A stretch of 64,000 nucleotides of DNA, taken from the IMG/VR virus record IMGVR_UViG_3300032236_001858, one strand, 5' to 3'. Within the stretch, counting starts at the first letter, position 1. Every line of letters starts with the position of its first letter. A program made the translations under genes and the position numbers. Below the pieces are notes generated by a model. That model did no database searches, had not been told where the DNA came from, and saw only the letters and a program-made list of their open reading frames with translations. Below, one piece after another: positions 9,213-58,549 of the stretch. The stretch comes from a virus. Its lineage: Duplodnaviria; Heunggongvirae; Uroviricota; Caudoviricetes.

Positions 9213-9245
9213 AAAAGCCTCTGATTTCTCAGAGGCTTTTCTTTT
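9211..9245. terminator. bidirectional rho-independent terminator
   Basis: Hairpin GCCTCTGATTTCTCAGAGGC flanked by an A-run and a T-run, between convergent genes. Confidence 0.65.
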
Positions 9246-9255
9246 AATATATTTT

Positions 9256-10665
9256 TTAGCAGTCGTAACAATCTACTGTTCCTCTACCACTACAATTATC
9301 ACATTCTACTGTACCATCTCCGTTACATTCTGGACAATCTGTTTCATTTCCCTCTTCATCTTCAATGTGACCTAATCCTTCACAATTTGAACAATCAACA
9401 CTTCCATCTCCACCACAATCGTCACATTCCATTCTACCCGTTCCGCCGCAAGTATCACAAGGTCTAACATAGTCACCACCTGTATCTTCTAAGAAATAAC
9501 AACCACCAGTATCTTCACTTGAAATAGTTTTTTTACGAGGATTGAAATATTTAAGTGTATCTAAGTAAGGGAAATTATCCATACTAGCATCAGTTAAATT
9601 AACCGTTAAATCTAAATTAACTCTACTTCCATCCGGTGCTACAGCTTGATTACTATCTGAACTATTATTATATTCTTTATAATACCAACCATTTTCTTTA
9701 GCATAATCTCTGAATAATTGAACATCTGAATCATTTACCGTATAAACTCTGTCTAAGAATTCTTTACCATCTCTTAACTTCCAAAGTAAAGCTCTACCAA
9801 CAATTTTTTCAGTATCATCCATTGATTTGTAAATAACTAAACCAACTTCTGGATTAGCAGTGTAAACTTCTAACCAACTATCTGGAGCACCAGCCATACA
9901 AGACGAACCTAAAGTCCCACTTCTTTGATAATAATTTGAGTTATGATACCAGTGAGCAATATCAGAACCCCTAACAACTTCAAAGTAAGAGAATTTATCA
10001 TTCATCTTATCAATAGTAGCTTTATATAAATTTACAAATTGTTCAAAATCTCTATCAGCAAATGTAGTAATACCAGCAGCTCTTAAAAGTGCTCTCATAG
10101 CTCTACCTACTTTTACTTCTTGTCTGTTTGTTGACCAAACTTTTTTAATTCTCTCATCAACAGCTCTTATCTTTTCAACATTATAAACACCTTGACCAAC
10201 ATCATTACCTGATTGGTCTTTGAATTTAACCCAAGCATAAGTTTTACCTGATTGTTCAGATGTTACTCTAGCAATAACCTCACCTAAATCTGTAGATTGT
10301 GGTTTATAAGGCTCAGAGCCTTCTTCAAATGTATAACCTAGTTGAGTAAATAATTTTGCATTTGAATCTTTGTGTTTTAACCAACCACCACCAGAACCGA
10401 TAAATCTAACTACTTCTTTAGTATCACCTAAAATCTCTTGAGCTTTTCTATCAGGAGTAAAAGTAATTGTATCGTTTTTTGTGAACTCAATATCAAGGTA
10501 ATTAGCTTGAACATTGTAGTCATTATTTTCAGCATCTAAAATAGCTTTCGCTACAGGGCTGTCAATCTTAGTCATTGCTTTTCTGAAGTTATCGGAATAA
10601 ACAACATTAGATTCTAGAATAAATTCTAGGTTTTCGTTTATAAAATCTGAATATTTTTTAATCAT
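9256..10665 (-). CDS. hypothetical protein with C-terminal DnaJ-type CxxCxGxG zinc-finger repeats
   Basis: The C-terminal 70 aa hold at least six CxxC(x)GxG units. The N-terminal 400 aa have no recognisable motif. The ORF track extends the start to a TTG at 10671. Confidence 0.55.
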   Translation of the reverse strand: MIKKYSDFINENLEFILESNVVYSDNFRKAMTKIDSPVAKAILDAENNDYNVQANYLDIEFTKNDTITFTPDRKAQEILGDTKEVVRFIGSGGGWLKHKDSNAKLFTQLGYTFEEGSEPYKPQSTDLGEVIARVTSEQSGKTYAWVKFKDQSGNDVGQGVYNVEKIRAVDERIKKVWSTNRQEVKVGRAMRALLRAAGITTFADRDFEQFVNLYKATIDKMNDKFSYFEVVRGSDIAHWYHNSNYYQRSGTLGSSCMAGAPDSWLEVYTANPEVGLVIYKSMDDTEKIVGRALLWKLRDGKEFLDRVYTVNDSDVQLFRDYAKENGWYYKEYNNSSDSNQAVAPDGSRVNLDLTVNLTDASMDNFPYLDTLKYFNPRKKTISSEDTGGCYFLEDTGGDYVRPCDTCGGTGRMECDDCGGDGSVDCSNCEGLGHIEDEEGNETDCPECNGDGTVECDNCSGRGTVDCYDC

Positions 10666-48165: not shown

Positions 48166-48618
48166 ATGGATAATCAAAAACTAGAGAAGATATTTAGTTA
48201 TCTACCACCTTCACTTGATAAAGTTAAAAATAACTTGAGTGAGAATGGTCAGAAAATTGGTCTAAAAACAGGATATGAACCTTACATTCAACACATTCCA
48301 GAAATGATTGAAGAAGCTCAAAGTGTTTTCATTGAGCTATGTGTTCAAGAAGGTATTTTAGACAAAAAGTTTTTAAGTGGTAAAGTTCATCGTCAAGGTA
48401 TTATTGGTAGATATTTAGATGATTCTGGTTCTGGTATTTATAAGTATTGGAATAGATTTATGTGTATTGATGAAAAATATCGTGAGTGGGAACAACCATA
48501 TTACGCAATCAACTTTGAAAAAGAAGGTAAAGATTTTCATGGCTGTTGTATAAACACTATGTCTCCAGAATTGATTTCTTTTTTTAGAGACCAAAAAATT
48601 AATGAAGTATTATCATGA
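48166..48618 (+). CDS. hypothetical protein
   Basis: 150-aa ORF. Confidence 0.45.
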   Translation: MDNQKLEKIFSYLPPSLDKVKNNLSENGQKIGLKTGYEPYIQHIPEMIEEAQSVFIELCVQEGILDKKFLSGKVHRQGIIGRYLDDSGSGIYKYWNRFMCIDEKYREWEQPYYAINFEKEGKDFHGCCINTMSPELISFFRDQKINEVLS

Positions 48619-48923
48619 ACGGATTTGAAAGTTTAAGAATACCACATATAAAGTATATTTCTGAAACTCAATCAAAGAGTAAAGGAGAAAGAACTTTATA
48701 TTATTTAGGTGGAGAACCAGAAGAAAATCATTCAAGATTAACCATAGGTAAACAATATGTAGTTAGAACTGCTTCTTACTCACCAAGTGCTGATATTGAG
48801 CGAGTTAGTGTATGGTTATGTTCTGATGATGAAAATAAAGGTAGATTATGTAGGGTAAATCTAAATAATTTCGGTACCTTTGCAGATGTGCGTGATAGAA
48901 AAATAGACCAGATAATTAAGTAA
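48615..48923 (+). CDS. hypothetical protein
   Basis: 102-aa ORF. Confidence 0.4.
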   Translation: MNGFESLRIPHIKYISETQSKSKGERTLYYLGGEPEENHSRLTIGKQYVVRTASYSPSADIERVSVWLCSDDENKGRLCRVNLNNFGTFADVRDRKIDQIIK

Positions 48924-49731: not shown

Positions 49732-51027
49732 ATGAACATAGAATCTCTAGGAAGACAGGCTATAGATAGAATCAAGTCTGAATGGGGCTTGCCCTTACAC
49801 GGATTTGTCGCTGGAGGTGCCATCGCAAACATTGTTTGGGAATTGGTATCAGGCAACAAAGCAGTGGTCAATGATATTGACATCTTTGTTTTTGATGGTA
49901 TTGAAAAAGAAATAGATTCAAATAAAAATTCTCTTTTCAATTACCAAGAAAAAGAAACAAAGTATTATGAAGACTATAATGGTATGAATTTTAATAATTA
50001 TACCAAGGATTTCTATTCTATAGTTGAGTCTGAGAGAGACGATATGTTTAATACTATTAAATATAAATCAAACACATCAGATCCTTCTTTAATTATTAAA
50101 TCATTTGATATTAATGCCACCCGCATCGGTTACGATATTGATAATGATAAAATCTATTGGACTTCTGAGTTTGAAGACTTCTTAAAAACTGGTGAACTAA
50201 AGATTACAAATCTTATGACACCTTCTCACACCGCAATTCGCATTGCTAAAAAGAATAAAGAGTTAAATGCTAAACTTGATGAATTTGAATTCAAATTAAT
50301 TCAATATGCTCTTTCTTATAGATTTATAGATAGAATCAAACTAAGATTTAGAGAAAGATATTTAGAAATGTGTAGAGAGTATAAAGATGTACTAACTAAG
50401 TATTTTCAAATGTCAAGAGATTTAGAATCTGAGGAATGGGTTTTAAGAGAAAAAGGCGAAAAAGTAGAACTTTATTATCTAGTAGCTAGAGATTATGAAC
50501 TGGAGAAAATTACTGATGAGTTTGAAAAAATTGTTTACAGTAGTTTACCTAAAATCTTTGATGATGAGAATATTAATAAGATATTCAAGTCAACCGACTT
50601 CTTATTCTATATGAGAAATATCTATAATAAAGAACAAAATATTAAAGATATGTGGTCTAAGCTATACTACTTCTTTAATGATGTTCACTATATAGATAGA
50701 GAAATTAACCAAGAAGATATGCAACTCTTAGAAAGATTTGCTAAATACGCTCCAGATTCTATTGAAAATCTTAAAGGTCTAAAAATCTCTGAGCAAATAG
50801 AAATTATTAAAAAGTTTTTAGATACATTTAAGGAAGATCCATTAATAGCAATTTCAATTTTAGAAAATACTAGAGTTGATAAGAACATTGTTTTAGATGA
50901 GCAAACTATGTTACTTTTAGAACTTTCTGTAAGAAAAAAAATTATTAATGATACTCGTGGTAAAGTCAATAAAATCTTGAATATTGAGGAAGCTGTTGAA
51001 AGTAAACCAGGTGATATCATCTGGTAA
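49732..51027 (+). CDS. Pol-beta-superfamily nucleotidyltransferase, CCA-adding / poly(A)-polymerase-like
   Basis: GFVAGGAIANIVW...NDIDIFV matches the GGxVRDxLLG...DxD head motif. FDINATRIGYD resembles RDFTINA motif B. 431 aa. Confidence 0.4.
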   Translation: MNIESLGRQAIDRIKSEWGLPLHGFVAGGAIANIVWELVSGNKAVVNDIDIFVFDGIEKEIDSNKNSLFNYQEKETKYYEDYNGMNFNNYTKDFYSIVESERDDMFNTIKYKSNTSDPSLIIKSFDINATRIGYDIDNDKIYWTSEFEDFLKTGELKITNLMTPSHTAIRIAKKNKELNAKLDEFEFKLIQYALSYRFIDRIKLRFRERYLEMCREYKDVLTKYFQMSRDLESEEWVLREKGEKVELYYLVARDYELEKITDEFEKIVYSSLPKIFDDENINKIFKSTDFLFYMRNIYNKEQNIKDMWSKLYYFFNDVHYIDREINQEDMQLLERFAKYAPDSIENLKGLKISEQIEIIKKFLDTFKEDPLIAISILENTRVDKNIVLDEQTMLLLELSVRKKIINDTRGKVNKILNIEEAVESKPGDIIW

Positions 51028-51077: not shown

Positions 51078-51401
51078 ATGGTAGCATATATAACAGAATT
51101 AAATGCAGATAACTATGACAACTTTGTTAAAGAAGGATTAGTACTTGTTGACATTTGGGCGGCTTGGTGCGGTCCTTGTAAAATGATTTCACCTATTGTA
51201 GATGAAATCTCATCAGACTATGTTGATAGACTTAAAGTTGGTAAATGTGACGCTGATGCAAATAGAGATAAAGTTATGGAACTTGGTGTTAGAAATATTC
51301 CTACACTTTTCCTTTACAAAGATGGCCAAATTGTTGAAACTACAAAAGGTGCTATAACAAAAAAGGCAATAACTGAACTCATTGATAAACACTTATCATA
51401 A
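51078..51401 (+). CDS. trxA: thioredoxin
   Basis: WAAWCGPCK active site. 107 aa. Confidence 0.85.
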   Translation: MVAYITELNADNYDNFVKEGLVLVDIWAAWCGPCKMISPIVDEISSDYVDRLKVGKCDADANRDKVMELGVRNIPTLFLYKDGQIVETTKGAITKKAITELIDKHLS

Positions 51402-51976
51402 TGAAAGATATTGGTTACCTTTTTGACCTATTGAAAAAATCTAACATATCTCTATTGGGATATAAATTTAATCAAGAAAGGCTTAAAGATGAGATTATTT
51501 CAAAACTACCTCACTTGGTGGTTCATGAAATAAACTCGTCTTTTTCTTTTAAATCTTTTTTAAGAGATTTGAAACTTCAATCAATTTTAGAAACTAGTGA
51601 GACTATAAAAAATCCAGAGTATCTTGTTTTAGATTTGAATGATATTAGATTTAAATCAGATGATTTAGGTGATAGACAAAGACAAATATCTAATATTCTA
51701 AATAGGCTTAGAGAAGATATGTACTCTGGTTCTGATGTGCCTTATAAACTTTTGATACTCACCTCACTATACAGTAGTGGAAAGAACGTCGATGATGTTA
51801 ATATTACAAATTTTTCTGGCGGTAGCAAACCAATCTTTATGAGTGACGTAGTATTTGTAATGCAAGAAGAATCAATGAAAGTAATAAAGAATAGATTTGA
51901 TGAAAACAACATTGATATTTCTTACAATAAATTAAAAGATTATAACTATATTTGCAACTATGAAAATAACAACTAA
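51401..51976 (+). CDS. hypothetical protein
   Basis: 191-aa ORF between trx and smpB. Confidence 0.45.
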   Translation: MKDIGYLFDLLKKSNISLLGYKFNQERLKDEIISKLPHLVVHEINSSFSFKSFLRDLKLQSILETSETIKNPEYLVLDLNDIRFKSDDLGDRQRQISNILNRLREDMYSGSDVPYKLLILTSLYSSGKNVDDVNITNFSGGSKPIFMSDVVFVMQEESMKVIKNRFDENNIDISYNKLKDYNYICNYENNN

Positions 51977-52406
51977 CAAAAAAGCTTATTACGAATACTT
52001 TGTCATTGAAGACTTTGATGCTGGTATTATGCTTTTAGGAAGTGAAGTAAAGTCAATCAGAGAAGGTAACTTGAGTTTAATTGATTGTTTTGCTTACATT
52101 TCAGATGGTGAACTTTGGTTAAAAAATATGAAAGTGGCTCGATATAAACAAGTCCATGTTGCTGAAAAACATGAAGAAAATCGAGACAAAAAATTACTTC
52201 TCAATAGAAAAGAAATAAATAAAATTGAAAAGTTACTTCAAGATAATGGAACAACTATGGTTCCTTTAGAAGTATTCACAGCACATAATCGAATTAAAGT
52301 TAAGATTGGTGTTGTTAAAGGTAAGAAGCTATATGATAAAAGATCCACTATTAAAGAGAGAGATATAAAAAGAGAGATAAACAGAGAAAGTAATTTTAAT
52401 ATATAA
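51960..52406 (+). CDS. smpB: SsrA-binding protein SmpB
   Basis: KKAYYEYFVIEDFDAGIMLLGSEVKSIREG ... RDKKLLLNRKEI ... KIGVVKGKKLYDKRSTIKERD aligns along the full length with bacterial SmpB. Confidence 0.8.
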   Translation: MKITTNKKAYYEYFVIEDFDAGIMLLGSEVKSIREGNLSLIDCFAYISDGELWLKNMKVARYKQVHVAEKHEENRDKKLLLNRKEINKIEKLLQDNGTTMVPLEVFTAHNRIKVKIGVVKGKKLYDKRSTIKERDIKREINRESNFNI

Positions 52407-52425
52407 GTAAATATATTTATGTATT

Positions 52426-53298
52426 ATGTTAAACAATAAAGAAAAATCAATAAAATATTTATTGGAGAATTACTCAGTTAAATCAAAGGTTGAAATACAA
52501 AATGATTTAAATTTATCTTGGTCTTATATACAAAAATTAGCATGTCTTAATGGTATTAAAAGAACATCAAATGAGTCACCAAATGATTGGAGATATAAAA
52601 AGTTAATAAACTATAATGATAATATCTCTATGTATTGGATAGGATTTATGATAGCAGACGGTCATATTTCTAAAAAGAAGAATATACAGATTAATATATC
52701 TATAAAAGATAAACTACATCTGTTAAAAATAACAGAACATATTGGTAATATTTCTATAAATCTAACTGATAGTCAAATAAGAGCTACTATAAACGATAGA
52801 AGAACTACGAGTGTTTTATCAAATGATTTTAAATGGCTTTCTAATAAGACAAAAAATCCAATAGAAATACCAAAAATTATTTCTGAGGATTCTTTATTTA
52901 GTTTAATTATTGGATTTATAGATGGTGATGGTACCATAAATAAAAAAGGACATATTTTTGTTAAGTGTGATGGTTCTTGGAAGAATAATTTGGAATATTT
53001 TTATTATATATTAACAGGTGAAAAAAAAGTATTTAATCTAACAAGTGATGGTTTATCCATAATCTATATTCTTAAATTTAAGAATTTAATTCAAATTAAA
53101 GAAAGAGCTAAATTATTAAATTTACCAATAATGAGTAGAAAGTGGGATAGAATAGAAAATAAAGTTTTCAAGAGTGATAAATATGAGATTGTTAAAACTC
53201 TACTTAAAGAAGGTAATTCTATTAAAGAGACAATTGATAAAACAAACTTTGGACAAACTCTTGTTTATAAAGTTTATAAAGAAATTAATAAAATTTAA
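52426..53298 (+). mobile_element. freestanding LAGLIDADG homing endonuclease
   Basis: Two LAGLIDADG motifs, WIGFMIADGHI and LIIGFIDGDGTI. Confidence 0.65.
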
Positions 53299-55300: not shown

Positions 55301-55320
55301 ACTCTATATATTAAAAAATA

Positions 55321-55352
55321 TTTGGTAAAATAAAACTTTATTCTTAATTTTG
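55321..55352 (+). promoter_or_regulatory. Bacteroidetes-type promoter P1 (TTTG-N20-TAATTTTG)
   Basis: TTTGGTAAAATAAAACTTTATTCTTAATTTTG is about 80% identical over 40 nt to the promoter at 57882. Confidence 0.5.
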
Positions 55353-55787
55353 TATAACAAACAAAGAGTCGTTAAGACAAAAGTTAAGAAATTAACAAGT
55401 TGAAAGACTTCACATTATAAACAATTTAGAAGATAAGTGTGAGTCTTAACGAAATTATGGTAGTAAGTAGCTGTTAAATATGTTAACACCCTTGTTAAAG
55501 CCAGTGAACTACCTTGTATTATATTATATGATAATAGTAAGGGTGTAGATATCAAAGTCGTGTTGGTGATAGATGTCTCAAATATAACTAAATGAATAAA
55601 CCCAACTCAAAGAAGATTAAACCGAGCAGAATGGTAACACTGCTCAACCGAGGCGAAAGCATATTAAAAGGTAATCCTAAGTGATGAGGTCACTAAAAGT
55701 TAAGGTAAGGTTCTCGGATTTCGACCATACTTAGCAGGCGTTCCAAACATCTTCTTTTTTTATTAAAAATTATTAAAAACAAAGTAT
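55353..55787 (+). ncRNA. candidate structured non-coding RNA or long structured leader
   Basis: A 435-nt ORF-free stretch downstream of promoter P1. GC content is locally raised, with several hairpins (GAGCAG..CTGCTC, GTGATGAGGTCAC) and a tmRNA-5'-like TTCTCGGATTTCGAC element. Confidence 0.3.
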
Positions 55788-56195
55788 ATGACACTGAAAG
55801 AAAAAATTAACGCAGACTTCATTACAGCTTTTAAATCTAAAAACGCTGTTGCTAAAAGTATTTTATCCGTAGTAAAGGGTGAAATTCAAAATATTGAAAA
55901 GAACGTAGGCTCTGATAATCTTTCAGATGTTGAAGTAACTAAGATTTTAACAAAGACTGTTAAATCTCTTAAAGAAACTATTGCATTAAGCAATGACGAA
56001 AAATCTAAGCTTGAATTAGCTATTGTTGAAGTTTATCTTCCAAAGCAAATGTCTAAAGAAGAAGTTACTGCTAAAGTAACAGAACTTGTAAATTCTGGTA
56101 TCACTCAAATTGGTGCCATCATGAAAGAATTTGCAACTCTTCCAGCTGACAAGAAAATGGTCTCTGAATCAATCAAAGAAGTTACTAAACAGTAA
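55788..56195 (+). CDS. GatB/YqeY-domain protein
   Basis: VYLPKQMSKEEVTAKVTELVNSGITQIGAIMKEF aligns with YqeY (YLPEQLSEEEL...GA.S..DMGKVMG). Confidence 0.6.
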   Translation: MTLKEKINADFITAFKSKNAVAKSILSVVKGEIQNIEKNVGSDNLSDVEVTKILTKTVKSLKETIALSNDEKSKLELAIVEVYLPKQMSKEEVTAKVTELVNSGITQIGAIMKEFATLPADKKMVSESIKEVTKQ

Positions 56196-58231: not shown

Positions 58232-58304
58232 GGAACCTAAGCTAATCAGGTGAAAGCACTGGACTGAAAATCCAGGGAGCCCGGATCGTTACCGGGAGGT
58301 TCCA
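58232..58304 (+). tRNA. tRNA-Phe(GAA) variant with a non-canonical T-loop (ATCGTTA), encoded CCA
   Basis: Acceptor GGAACCT/AGGTTCC, anticodon stem CTGGA/TCCAG with loop CTGAAAA, T arm CCCGG-ATCGTTA-CCGGG, then A-CCA. Confidence 0.45.
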
Positions 58305-58315
58305 CCAAAATAAAT

Positions 58316-58389
58316 GGTGTATGTAGCTCAATCGGTAGAGCGTCGGTTTGTGGAGCCGAAGGTAGCGGGATCGTAACCCGTCATTCACC
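58316..58389 (+). tRNA. tRNA-His(GTG) with G-1:C73, non-canonical T-loop (ATCGTAA)
   Basis: G-1 precedes acceptor GTGTATG/CATTCAC (one mismatch). D arm GCTC-AATCGGTA-GAGC. Anticodon stem TCGGT/GCCGA with loop TTGTGGA. Confidence 0.5.
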
Positions 58390-58394
58390 CAAAA

Positions 58395-58466
58395 GGAGAC
58401 TTAGCTGAGACGGTTTAGCGTTTGGTTGAAGCCCAAAAGAGGTCGGTTCGATTCCGGCAGTCTCCA
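58395..58466 (+). tRNA. tRNA-Phe(GAA), canonical
   Basis: Acceptor GGAGACT/AGTCTCC, D arm GCTG..TAGC, anticodon stem TTTGG/CCAAA with loop TTGAAGC, T arm GTCGG-TTCGATT-CCGGC. Confidence 0.6.
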
Positions 58467-58472
58467 CAACAT

Positions 58473-58543
58473 ACGTCATACAGACAAGGTGTCGGTCAGG
58501 TCTCCAAAACCTCGACGGTGGGGTTCGATTCCTCAATGGCGTG
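58473..58543 (+). tRNA. tRNA-like, Trp anticodon CCA, atypical short D arm (71 nt)
   Basis: Acceptor ACGTCAT/ATGGCGT (one G-U pair). Anticodon stem CAGGT/ACCTC (one mismatch) with loop CTCCAAA. T arm TGGGG-TTCGATT-CCTCA. Confidence 0.35.
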
Positions 58544-58549
58544 CTAAAT

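What the first reader, a model, noticed from the sequence alone, without database searches (positions are those of the whole stretch)
51960..52406. Phage-encoded SmpB with no recognisable tmRNA in the window
A full-length SmpB is encoded right after thioredoxin and a hypothetical gene. SmpB is the obligate partner of tmRNA, yet no canonical tmRNA (tRNA-like ends plus a tag reading frame) could be found by eye in the 64 kb. Either the phage uses host tmRNA and supplies or replaces SmpB, possibly to hijack or block trans-translation, or the tmRNA is elsewhere or highly divergent. A LAGLIDADG homing endonuclease is inserted directly downstream.
Basis: partly seen in the sequence, partly recalled or inferred. 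Interest (0 to 1): 0.6.

Follow-up and report, generated by a model that had tools for sequence, protein, structure and literature searches.

The report
Huge-phage SmpB without a tmRNA gene
A giant bacteriophage carries an intact, selected copy of the ribosome-rescue protein SmpB but no gene for its RNA partner tmRNA, so it most likely works with the host's tmRNA; a previously undescribed structured RNA gene sits next to it.

Summary
ORF 51960..52406 (+) is a full-length SmpB: it scores above the curated Pfam and NCBIfam cut-offs and keeps the C-terminal GKK-x-Y-DKR tail. dN/dS among orthologues is about 0.1-0.2. ARAGORN and Rfam find no tmRNA in the 64 kb. The one sub-threshold tmRNA hit (60586..60716) is a tRNA-like gene with an insertion.

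The window comes from a Mahaphage-type huge phage. Its two closest complete relatives (642 kb and 634 kb) carry the same SmpB operon and no detectable tmRNA anywhere. The most likely reading is that phage SmpB works with host tmRNA.

SmpB and tmRNA in huge phages were already reported (Al-Shayeb 2020), so SmpB itself is not new. The LAGLIDADG gene downstream is a sporadic mobile insertion.

Unexpected: a covariation-supported, pseudoknotted RNA of about 400 nt (about 55360..55760, +) is single-copy and SmpB-linked. In 11 of 12 SmpB-selected loci of this clade it lies within a few kb downstream. In a sister subclade it starts roughly 60 nt after the SmpB stop where read. It matches no Rfam family and has no acceptor stem or T arm. 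Whether it partners SmpB is open and, on present evidence, unlikely.

The parts
51960..52406 (+). SmpB (SsrA-binding protein), 148 aa, full length with C-terminal tail
   Evidence: Pfam 176 bits. NCBIfam equivalogs above their cut-offs. PDB SmpB matches. Tail motif K120-G-K-K-L-Y-D-K-R128 aligns to E. coli K131..R139. dN/dS 0.10-0.19 in unsaturated pairs.
51401..51976 (+). 191-aa protein of unknown function; its end overlaps the SmpB start by 17 nt, suggesting translational coupling
   Evidence: ORF list. No Pfam, NCBIfam or PHROG match. An orthologue sits directly upstream of SmpB in most relatives. A methyltransferase gene intervenes in L033, and no such gene is called in L171.
51078..51401 (+). 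Thioredoxin, first gene of the conserved Trx-hyp191-SmpB block
   Evidence: PF00085, 99 bits. Conserved position in relatives.
52426..53298 (+). Free-standing double-motif LAGLIDADG homing endonuclease inserted in the spacer between SmpB and orf120
   Evidence: PF14528, 28.3 bits against a cut-off of 22.5. phrog_4645 endonuclease, 45.5 bits. Two motifs are visible in the translation, IGFMIADG and IGFIDGDG. Absent at this site in LR756502, LR745206, L030, L032, L033, L034, L170, L171, L172 and L174. A 69%-identical copy sits at the same site in L173.
55360..55760 (+). Conserved structured non-coding RNA (about 400 nt; ends not mapped) in the gap between the 548-aa gene (minus strand) and YqeY. 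Covarying helices: 55459-55464:55508-55513, 55470-55473:55502-55505, and pseudoknot 55487-55492:55540-55545. The 3' domain (55601-55758) is closed by a covarying 8-12 bp helix and contains an AAUCC/GGAUU loop-loop pseudoknot.
   Evidence: Strong DNA conservation. Covariation. Formal pair count: 96.4% paired, 11 pairs with changes on both sides against 3.9 in shuffles, 0 of 500 shuffles as high, slid controls 22-38% paired. The covariance model finds one copy per genome. No ORF longer than 46 aa. No Rfam hit at E <= 1.
55788..56195 (+). YqeY/GatB-type domain protein directly downstream of the RNA
   Evidence: PF09424 in the precomputed annotation. phrog_1460, 72 bits.
60586..60716 (+). tRNA-like gene with an insertion of about 45-58 nt; source of the only sub-threshold Rfam tmRNA hit; not a tmRNA
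   Evidence: RF00023 at 31 bits against a gathering score of 47, with about 300 model positions skipped. The sequence shows a normal D arm (GCTCAGTGGTAGAGA) and G3:C70. ARAGORN -i calls it tRNA-Glu(ttc) with a 44-nt intron.
58232..61388 (+). tRNA array (12 standard calls plus interrupted tRNA-like genes) about 6 kb downstream of SmpB; part of a translation-gene neighbourhood
   Evidence: The same arrangement is present in LR756502 and LR745206.

Best explanation
The gene encodes a functional, canonical SmpB belonging to a Mahaphage-type huge phage predicted to infect Bacteroidetes. The phage has no tmRNA gene of its own. During infection the phage SmpB most likely binds the host's tmRNA, loads it onto ribosomes stalled on truncated or non-stop mRNAs, and so maintains or raises trans-translation capacity. 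This would matter while the host's own gene expression is shut down or while host nucleases cut mRNAs and tRNAs. Shown: the protein's identity, its intact motifs, purifying selection, and the absence of tmRNA in the window and in complete relatives. Inferred: the pairing with host tmRNA and the benefit to the phage.
For: SmpB identity and full length. The tail residues equivalent to E. coli K131, G132, K133, K134, D137, K138, R139, K143 and R145 are conserved, with an aromatic residue at position 136. The E. coli reference sequence was checked against PDB 6q98. dN/dS is 0.10-0.19 for unsaturated orthologue pairs. More than 100 protein clusters at 65-87% identity lie on contigs of up to 630 kb. 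No tmRNA in the window. None by ARAGORN in the complete 642-kb and 634-kb relatives, with an E. coli ssrA positive control detected. None by Rfam in 590 kb of LR756502, and the remaining 52 kb has no stretch of 250 nt or more without a long open frame. None in any of the 169 loci held at that point (2.3 Mb). The neighbourhood is rich in translation genes: tRNA arrays, a HisRS-like core and YqeY, IF3 next to SmpB in L037, and ClpP nearby in L173 and L174. The relatives are Mahaphages with predicted Bacteroidetes hosts.
Against: Only 64 kb of this phage's contig of at least 481 kb was readable, so a tmRNA elsewhere in this particular genome is excluded only by analogy with relatives. LR745206 was scanned with ARAGORN only. 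No binding or activity data exist, and the host and its tmRNA are unknown. Annotations in the supplement of Al-Shayeb 2020 give the best UniRef matches of this clade's SmpB as Mycoplasma/Clostridium 'CAG' bins, not Bacteroidetes, so compatibility with the host tmRNA is assumed. A conserved SmpB-linked RNA of unknown function exists.
Confidence: 0.6

Rival explanations
1. Phage SmpB works with a phage-encoded, non-canonical RNA: the pseudoknotted RNA of about 400 nt at about 55360..55760. In a sister subclade this RNA sits directly after the SmpB gene, where ssrA sits after smpB in E. coli. It would replace or modify tmRNA function.
For: The RNA is real and structured. It is on the same strand as SmpB, because conserved G-U pairs fit only the + strand. 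It is single-copy per genome. It is present in 11 of 12 SmpB-selected loci of the clade. The invariant motif lies 279-450 nt after the SmpB end in L037, L046, L067, L078, L085, L104, L105, L106 and L115, so the RNA follows SmpB directly; read out in L037, the conserved core starts about 60 nt after the stop. Its size and tandem H-type pseudoknots recall tmRNA. In the sister subclade the invariant GUUCC is followed by ACCA or ACCG.
Against: No strand complementary to the putative acceptor 3' strand lies within -700 to +400 nt in any of 29 sequences. There is no T arm. No tRNA- or tmRNA-clan hit appears at E <= 1. ARAGORN finds nothing there. No conserved tag reading frame exists, because indels shift the frame. 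In L032 (SmpB 82% identical) the RNA is replaced by a 183-aa ORF. It is absent within 20 kb of SmpB in Lak-C1 and the 735-kb phage. It is at least as tightly linked to the downstream YqeY gene, so it could be a YqeY leader or an unrelated RNA.
Confidence: 0.13
2. Phage SmpB is a decoy or inhibitor. It would sequester host tmRNA or occupy stalled ribosomes without supporting tagging, protecting phage proteins from ssrA-mediated degradation or blocking a host stress signal.
For: No direct evidence. The idea is compatible with the absence of a phage tmRNA.
Against: The tail motif needed for productive A-site engagement (GKK..DKR) is conserved across the clade, and the whole protein is under purifying selection like a working SmpB. 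An inhibitor would be expected to lose or alter the tail.
Confidence: 0.08
3. A canonical tmRNA gene exists elsewhere in this phage's genome, outside the 64-kb window, so SmpB has its normal partner.
For: Al-Shayeb 2020 states that huge phages carry both tmRNAs and SmpB. The window covers at most about 13% of a contig of at least 481 kb.
Against: Both closest complete genomes lack one. No tmRNA was found in any SmpB neighbourhood fetched or within 20 kb of SmpB in Lak-C1 and the 735-kb phage.
Confidence: 0.08
4. SmpB has a tmRNA-independent role in the phage, for example modulating RNase R or acting on phage tRNA-like RNAs.
For: tmRNA-independent roles of SmpB are discussed in the literature (title and abstract of PMC11722516, listed; the paper was not read). 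The phage encodes many unusual long tRNA-like genes.
Against: Nothing here tests it. Conservation of the ribosome-engaging tail argues for the canonical activity.
Confidence: 0.08

Closest known systems
Bacterial SmpB of the SmpB-tmRNA trans-translation system (PF01668 / TIGR00086)
   Same: Same family by curated thresholds, same length, same beta-barrel core coverage, and the same C-terminal GKK-x-[H/Y/W]-DKR tail.
   Different: It is encoded by a phage. No tmRNA gene is detectable in the window or in complete relatives. E. coli W147, I154 and M155 are not conserved.
SmpB and tmRNA genes reported in huge phages (Al-Shayeb et al. 2020, PMC7162821)
   Same: The window's closest public relatives, LR756502 and LR745206, are genomes from that study and carry the orthologous 'SsrA-binding protein'. 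The paper lists SmpB and tmRNAs among huge-phage translation genes.
   Different: The paper does not say that this Mahaphage subclade has SmpB without tmRNA. It also does not describe the adjacent structured RNA.
Phage-encoded tmRNA without SmpB (for example some mycobacteriophages; own knowledge, not tested here)
   Same: A phage carries only one half of the two-component rescue system and must rely on the host for the other half.
   Different: This is the reverse case: the protein is present and the RNA is absent.
smpB-ssrA gene adjacency in E. coli and other bacteria (own knowledge)
   Same: In the sister subclade an RNA gene of about 350-400 nt follows SmpB directly on the same strand.
   Different: The RNA has no acceptor stem, G3:U70, T arm, tag frame or Rfam tmRNA score.
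Free-standing LAGLIDADG homing endonucleases of phages
   Same: Two LAGLIDADG motifs, an intergenic insertion, and a sporadic distribution at one site in related genomes.
   Different: Nothing unusual noted.

Membership tests
SmpB (PF01668 / TIGR00086 / NF003843) | Profile match above the curated whole-protein cut-off, over the full domain | tested here: met
   176.3 bits against 27; 178.5 against 130; 171.2 against 119.1; profile positions 1-140 of 143.
SmpB (PF01668 / TIGR00086 / NF003843) | Basic C-terminal tail with the GKK...DKR motif required for ribosome engagement (residue roles from own knowledge of the E. coli literature) | tested here: met
   K120, G121, K122, K123, Y125, D126, K127, R128, K132 and R134 align to E. 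coli 131-145. The motif is conserved across 118 clade members. One relative, L032, has NKK instead of DKR.
SmpB (PF01668 / TIGR00086 / NF003843) | Cognate tmRNA gene in the same genome | tested here: not met
   None in the window. None in the complete relatives LR756502 and LR745206. The rest of this phage's own contig was not available.
SmpB (PF01668 / TIGR00086 / NF003843) | Binds the tRNA-like domain of tmRNA and supports tagging | not testable with these tools
   Needs biochemistry or genetic complementation.
tmRNA (Rfam RF00023 and the permuted tmRNA families), applied to the RNA at 55360..55760 | Score at or above the Rfam gathering threshold, or an ARAGORN call | tested here: not met
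   No hit of any family at E <= 1 there. No ARAGORN call at the default threshold, and none at this site at 80% thresholds.
tmRNA (Rfam RF00023 and the permuted tmRNA families), applied to the RNA at 55360..55760 | Acceptor stem (5' and 3' ends paired, G3:U70) and T arm | tested here: not met
   No 7-nt partner for the strand ending in GUUCC in 29 sequences. No T stem around the TTCGA motif (inspection).
tmRNA (Rfam RF00023 and the permuted tmRNA families), applied to the RNA at 55360..55760 | Conserved tag reading frame ending in a stop codon | tested here: inconclusive
   An invariant UAA lies in a hairpin loop, but 1-nt indels and in-frame stops upstream break any common frame.
tmRNA, applied to the 131-nt element at 60586..60716 | G3:U70, no canonical D stem, mRNA-like domain | tested here: not met
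   G3:C70, a standard D arm, and only a 44-58 nt insert; 31 bits against a gathering score of 47.
LAGLIDADG homing endonuclease (PF14528) | LAGLIDADG motifs and a profile match above the cut-off | tested here: met
   28.3 bits against 22.5. Two motifs are present in the translation. PHROG endonuclease families match.
LAGLIDADG homing endonuclease (PF14528) | Sporadic presence at a fixed site among related genomes | tested here: met
   Present in the window and in L173 (69% identical, same site). Absent at that site in ten other relatives.

The most novel reading that the evidence does not exclude
The conserved, pseudoknotted, phage-specific RNA next to SmpB (about 55360..55760) is SmpB's dedicated RNA partner. 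It would be a radically remodelled tmRNA replacement, or an SmpB-dependent RNA, lacking a canonical tRNA-like domain. That would give this clade of 0.5-0.64 Mb phages its own variant ribosome-rescue or ribosome-targeting particle.
Probability: 0.12. Interest if true: 0.85.

Novelty: new member of a known kind. Interest (0 to 1): 0.45.

Why it matters
Phage-encoded SmpB is already on record for huge phages, so the gene alone adds little. The new point is that a whole Mahaphage subclade keeps SmpB under purifying selection with no tmRNA gene in complete genomes. That makes 'phage protein plus host RNA' a concrete, testable hybrid rescue complex, and it suggests that ribosome rescue is limiting during giant-phage infection. 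Separately, the linked pseudoknotted RNA is an unclassified, covariation-supported RNA family that occurs once per genome beside translation genes. Determining its function, whether as an SmpB partner, a YqeY leader or something else, would be a worthwhile RNA-biology question.

Tried and rejected
1. The sub-threshold Rfam tmRNA hit at 60586..60716 was rejected as an interrupted tRNA-like gene.
2. ARAGORN at 80% thresholds gave 7 permuted 'tmRNAp' calls. None recurs at the default threshold, and I treated them as noise without checking each one.
3. My own scan for a T arm plus acceptor-stem partner in the window and LR756502 was too noisy and gave no tmRNA-like candidate.
4. A search of the Al-Shayeb supplementary files for 'tmRNA' was uninformative. 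Only the first 200 of 257 files were searched, the files with matches were truncated when stored, and only SsrA-binding protein annotations were recovered.
5. AcrIIIA1 (PMC11662646) mentions tmRNA and SmpB but is unrelated to phage SmpB.
6. Single-sequence folding of the RNA region was not significant (z = -1.4 on the + strand, -1.0 on the - strand). Structure emerged only from comparison.
7. A first all-against-all column covariation scan was swamped by one-sided G-U/A-U variation and was replaced by a stricter helix-level filter.
8. The idea that GUUCC-ACCA is a tRNA-like 3' end was not upheld: no partner strand exists, and the nucleotides that follow pair in the closing helix.
9. A resemblance to RNase P CR-I (GAGGUAAGUCC in some members) was considered from memory only. 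No RNase P model hit the region at E <= 1 and the order of elements differs.
10. The 18-mer scan of GTDB genomes gave only 3 chance matches inside coding regions.
11. About 60 of the 80 metagenome loci fetched with the 16-mer carried none of three checked 3'-domain motifs and are presumably chance matches.
12. Lak-C1 and the 735-kb phage have neither a tmRNA nor the RNA near SmpB.

Full report
**1. The observation**

The ORF at 51960..52406 (+) encodes 148 aa. It matches Pfam SmpB at 176.3 bits over profile positions 1-140 of 143. It also matches both NCBIfam SmpB equivalogs well above their curated cut-offs and solved SmpB structures at E = 1e-35 to 1e-18.

It is preceded by a thioredoxin (51078..51401) and a 191-aa ORF without any family match (51401..51976). 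The end of that ORF overlaps the SmpB start by 17 nt. SmpB is followed by a LAGLIDADG_3 ORF (52426..53298).

No tmRNA was found in the window:
- ARAGORN finds 12 tRNAs (58232..61388) and no tmRNA. At lowered thresholds it gives only scattered 'permuted' calls.
- Rfam at gathering thresholds finds only tRNAs.
- Rfam E-value scans covering the whole window give a single tmRNA-family match, 31 bits against a gathering score of 47, at 60586..60716. That match skips about 300 model positions.
- The matched sequence has a normal tRNA D arm and G3:C70 instead of the G3:U70 alanine identity pair. ARAGORN in intron mode reads it as an interrupted tRNA. It is not a tmRNA.

**2. What the window is**

The region is about 24-38% G+C. 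The best phage-database matches to the SmpB are two 'uncultured phage' genomes, LR756502 (642 kb, 65% identity) and LR745206 (634 kb, 63%). Lak megaphages (about 47%) and the 735-kb phage (about 44%) follow.

LR756502 and LR745206 are two of the four largest curated genomes of Al-Shayeb et al. 2020. They belong to the Mahaphage clade and are predicted to infect Bacteroidetes. The paper's supplementary files annotate their orthologues as SsrA-binding protein.

The exact window protein is on record on a 481-kb contig. More than 100 protein clusters at 65-87% identity sit on contigs of up to 630 kb.

Gene order is conserved in every relative fetched: DNA ligase, sigma factor, Gad2-like nucleotidyltransferase, thioredoxin, hyp191, SmpB, orf120, a gene of about 550 aa on the opposite strand, YqeY, then tRNA arrays. 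There are small variations; in L033 a methyltransferase gene sits between hyp191 and SmpB, and in L171 no hyp191 gene is called.

**3. Is the SmpB functional?**

I aligned it to E. coli SmpB, having checked my recalled E. coli sequence as 100% identical to PDB 6q98. The phage protein keeps the equivalents of K131, G132, K133, K134, D137, K138, R139, K143 and R145. It has an aromatic residue (Y) at position 136. W147, I154 and M155 are not kept.

Across 118 full-length clade members, 49 of 148 positions are at least 98% invariant, including GKK. Pairwise dN/dS is 0.10-0.19 for pairs whose dS is below 1. This is a working gene, not a relic.

The roles of the tail residues are from my knowledge of the E. 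coli literature and were not tested here.

**4. Is there a tmRNA elsewhere?**

I could not read the rest of this phage's contig, so I fetched both closest complete genomes in full.
- LR756502: ARAGORN finds 46 tRNAs and no tmRNA.
- LR745206: ARAGORN finds 59 tRNAs and no tmRNA. An E. coli ssrA control embedded in filler sequence was detected.
- Rfam at gathering thresholds on LR756502 positions 1-590,000 finds tRNAs, a GOLLD RNA and two small motifs, but no tmRNA family.
- The unscanned last 52 kb of LR756502 has no stretch of 250 nt or more that lacks an open frame of at least 70 codons, so a tmRNA gene of about 350 nt has no room there.
- ARAGORN over all 169 loci held at that point (2.3 Mb), including the SmpB neighbourhoods fetched up to then, the Lak-C1 region and the 735-kb phage region, finds none. 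The five loci fetched afterwards (L170-L174) were not scanned for tmRNA.

'SmpB without tmRNA' is therefore a property of the clade, not an artefact of the window edge.

**5. Most likely mechanism**

tmRNA is universal in bacteria (established knowledge). A phage that brings SmpB but not tmRNA most simply uses the host's tmRNA.

The gene sits among translation genes:
- tRNA arrays;
- a 210-aa HisRS/HisZ-like catalytic core;
- YqeY;
- IF3 next to SmpB in L037;
- ClpP a few genes upstream in L173 and L174.

I infer that the phage sustains or boosts ribosome rescue. This would help while host expression is shut off, or while defence nucleases cut mRNA and tRNA. A Gad2-like anti-defence-type gene lies two genes upstream.

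A decoy or inhibitor role is disfavoured by the conserved tail and by purifying selection. None of this is shown experimentally.

**6. The homing endonuclease**

The 290-aa ORF has two LAGLIDADG motifs. It fills the SmpB-orf120 spacer, which is only about 2-60 nt long in relatives. It is absent at this site from ten related genomes. In L173, whose SmpB is 71% identical, a 69%-identical copy occupies the same site. This is the sporadic distribution expected of a mobile homing endonuclease gene. It does not interrupt SmpB.

**7. An unexpected linked RNA**

*Conservation.* The 490-bp gap between the 548-aa gene and YqeY (55301..55787) is far better conserved than a spacer should be. An invariant 18-mer (GCAGAATGGTAACACTGC) retrieved 10 viral contigs. 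A 16-mer retrieved metagenome contigs, of which 19 carried at least one of three further 3'-domain motifs I checked. Together these gave 28 distinct sequences.

*Structure.* Comparison shows a structured RNA on the + strand.
- Helices 55459-55464:55508-55513 and 55470-55473:55502-55505 both covary.
- An H-type pseudoknot, 55487-55492:55540-55545, also covaries.
- A probable second pseudoknot follows; this rests on inspection only.
- A 3' domain (55601-55758) is closed by an 8-12 bp helix. The helix sequence differs between lineages while pairing is kept, for example AAGAAGAU, AAUGAAAAAU, AAAGAGA and UGGAG.
- The 3' domain contains a loop-loop pseudoknot, AAUCC/GGAUU.

*Formal test.* On alignment A3, 96.4% of cells are paired. 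Eleven of 27 pairs show changes on both sides, against 3.9 in shuffles, and 0 of 500 shuffles reach any observed measure. Slid controls give 22-38% paired.

*Other properties.* There is no ORF longer than 46 aa and no Rfam hit at E <= 1. The three 18-mer matches in 185,579 species genomes are chance hits inside coding regions.

**8. Is that RNA SmpB's partner?**

For:
- Covariance model R1 finds exactly one copy in the window, in LR756502 and in LR745206, always at this locus.
- It is present in 11 of 12 SmpB-selected loci of the clade.
- In a sister subclade (SmpB 52-58% identical: L037, L046, L067, L078, L085, L104, L105, L106, L115) orf120 and the 550-aa gene are missing. There the invariant motif lies 279-450 nt after the SmpB end on the same strand, so the RNA follows SmpB directly; read out in L037, the conserved core starts about 60 nt after the stop. 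This is where ssrA lies after smpB in E. coli (own knowledge).
- In L037 the gene downstream of the RNA is IF3, not YqeY.
- In that subclade the invariant GUUCC is followed by ACCA or ACCG.

Against:
- No strand complementary to the would-be acceptor strand was found in any of 29 sequences.
- There is no T arm and no common tag frame.
- The nucleotides after GUUCC pair in the closing helix.
- In L032, whose SmpB is 82% identical, the RNA is replaced by a 183-aa ORF while SmpB and YqeY stay.
- Lak-C1 and the 735-kb phage have SmpB but no such RNA within 20 kb.
- In most genomes the RNA ends about 40-60 nt before the YqeY start, so it may be a leader of that gene.

I rate the partner hypothesis at about 0.12. 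The RNA is nonetheless a solid, unclassified RNA family.

**9. Comparison with what is known, and verdict**

The protein is a member of the SmpB family; all testable defining features are met except a cognate tmRNA gene. Huge-phage SmpB and tmRNA were reported in 2020. PHROGs already has a family for it, phrog_6791, labelled 'unknown function'. The finding is therefore a new member of a known kind.

Two things are added here. First, complete genomes of this subclade have SmpB but no tmRNA. Second, there is an adjacent novel structured RNA.

Overall interest is moderate (0.45). It would be high only if the RNA proves to be an SmpB partner.

Noticed in passing
window 55360..55760 (+); also L001 31870-32051, L002 25742-25911, L030 12742-12904, L037 about 9230-9597: Unclassified structured RNA of about 400 nt with covariation-supported helices and pseudoknots. 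It is single-copy per genome, lies between SmpB and YqeY, and has an invariant hairpin loop AGAAUGGUAACAC. There is no Rfam match.
   Followed up: yes
window 59383..59470, 59478..59562, 59566..59649 (+): Three tRNA-Lys genes (anticodons ttt, ttt, ctt) of 84-88 nt carry a long, paired variable arm like class II tRNAs. Similar long tRNA-Lys genes occur in LR756502 and LR745206. This is unusual for lysine tRNAs.
   Followed up: partly
window 59657..59762, 59773..59916, 60586..60716 (+); L105, between SmpB and the RNA: tRNA-like genes of 106-143 nt have good acceptor stems, D arms and T arms but carry 30-75 nt insertions. ARAGORN in intron mode calls two of them as Leu(taa) with a 50-nt intron and Glu(ttc) with a 44-nt intron. 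The inserts are too short for group I introns. One such gene lies directly after SmpB in L105.
   Followed up: partly
window 59944..60576 (+): A 210-aa protein matches only the N-terminal catalytic core of histidine-tRNA ligase / HisZ (158 bits, below the equivalog cut-off of 286.75). It sits inside the tRNA array and is 86% identical in both complete relatives.
   Followed up: partly
window 49732..51027 (+): A 431-aa protein two genes upstream of SmpB is listed as PF26128 Gad2 in the precomputed annotation. My own Pfam scan gave only a weak nucleotidyltransferase hit. Gad2 is known to me as an anti-Gabija protein; this was not tested here.
   Followed up: no
L010 44685-45091 (LR756502 434685-435091): A GOLLD RNA (275 bits) lies next to a tRNA-like gene in the 642-kb relative. 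None was found in the window.
   Followed up: no
L173 2903-3469; L174 1012-1578: Some relatives carry a ClpP protease gene a few genes upstream of SmpB. ClpP degrades ssrA-tagged proteins in bacteria (own knowledge). The window has no such gene in that position.
   Followed up: no
window about 55305..55360 and the equivalent positions in relatives, including L032: A conserved AT-rich motif (TATATATTAAA..TTTGGTAAA.TAAAACTTT..N..TTTGTATAA) lies upstream of the RNA. It is kept in L032, where the RNA is replaced by a protein gene, so it may be a phage promoter.
   Followed up: no
window 58686..59228 (+): An HNH endonuclease ORF (PF13395 in the precomputed annotation) lies inside the tRNA array. 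It is a second mobile-type nuclease near the translation genes.
   Followed up: no
L001 48571-48910 (LR756502): ARAGORN in intron mode calls a tRNA-Ser(cga) with a 265-nt insert, possibly a group I intron in a tRNA gene. Rfam sees a tRNA at 48572-48674.
   Followed up: no
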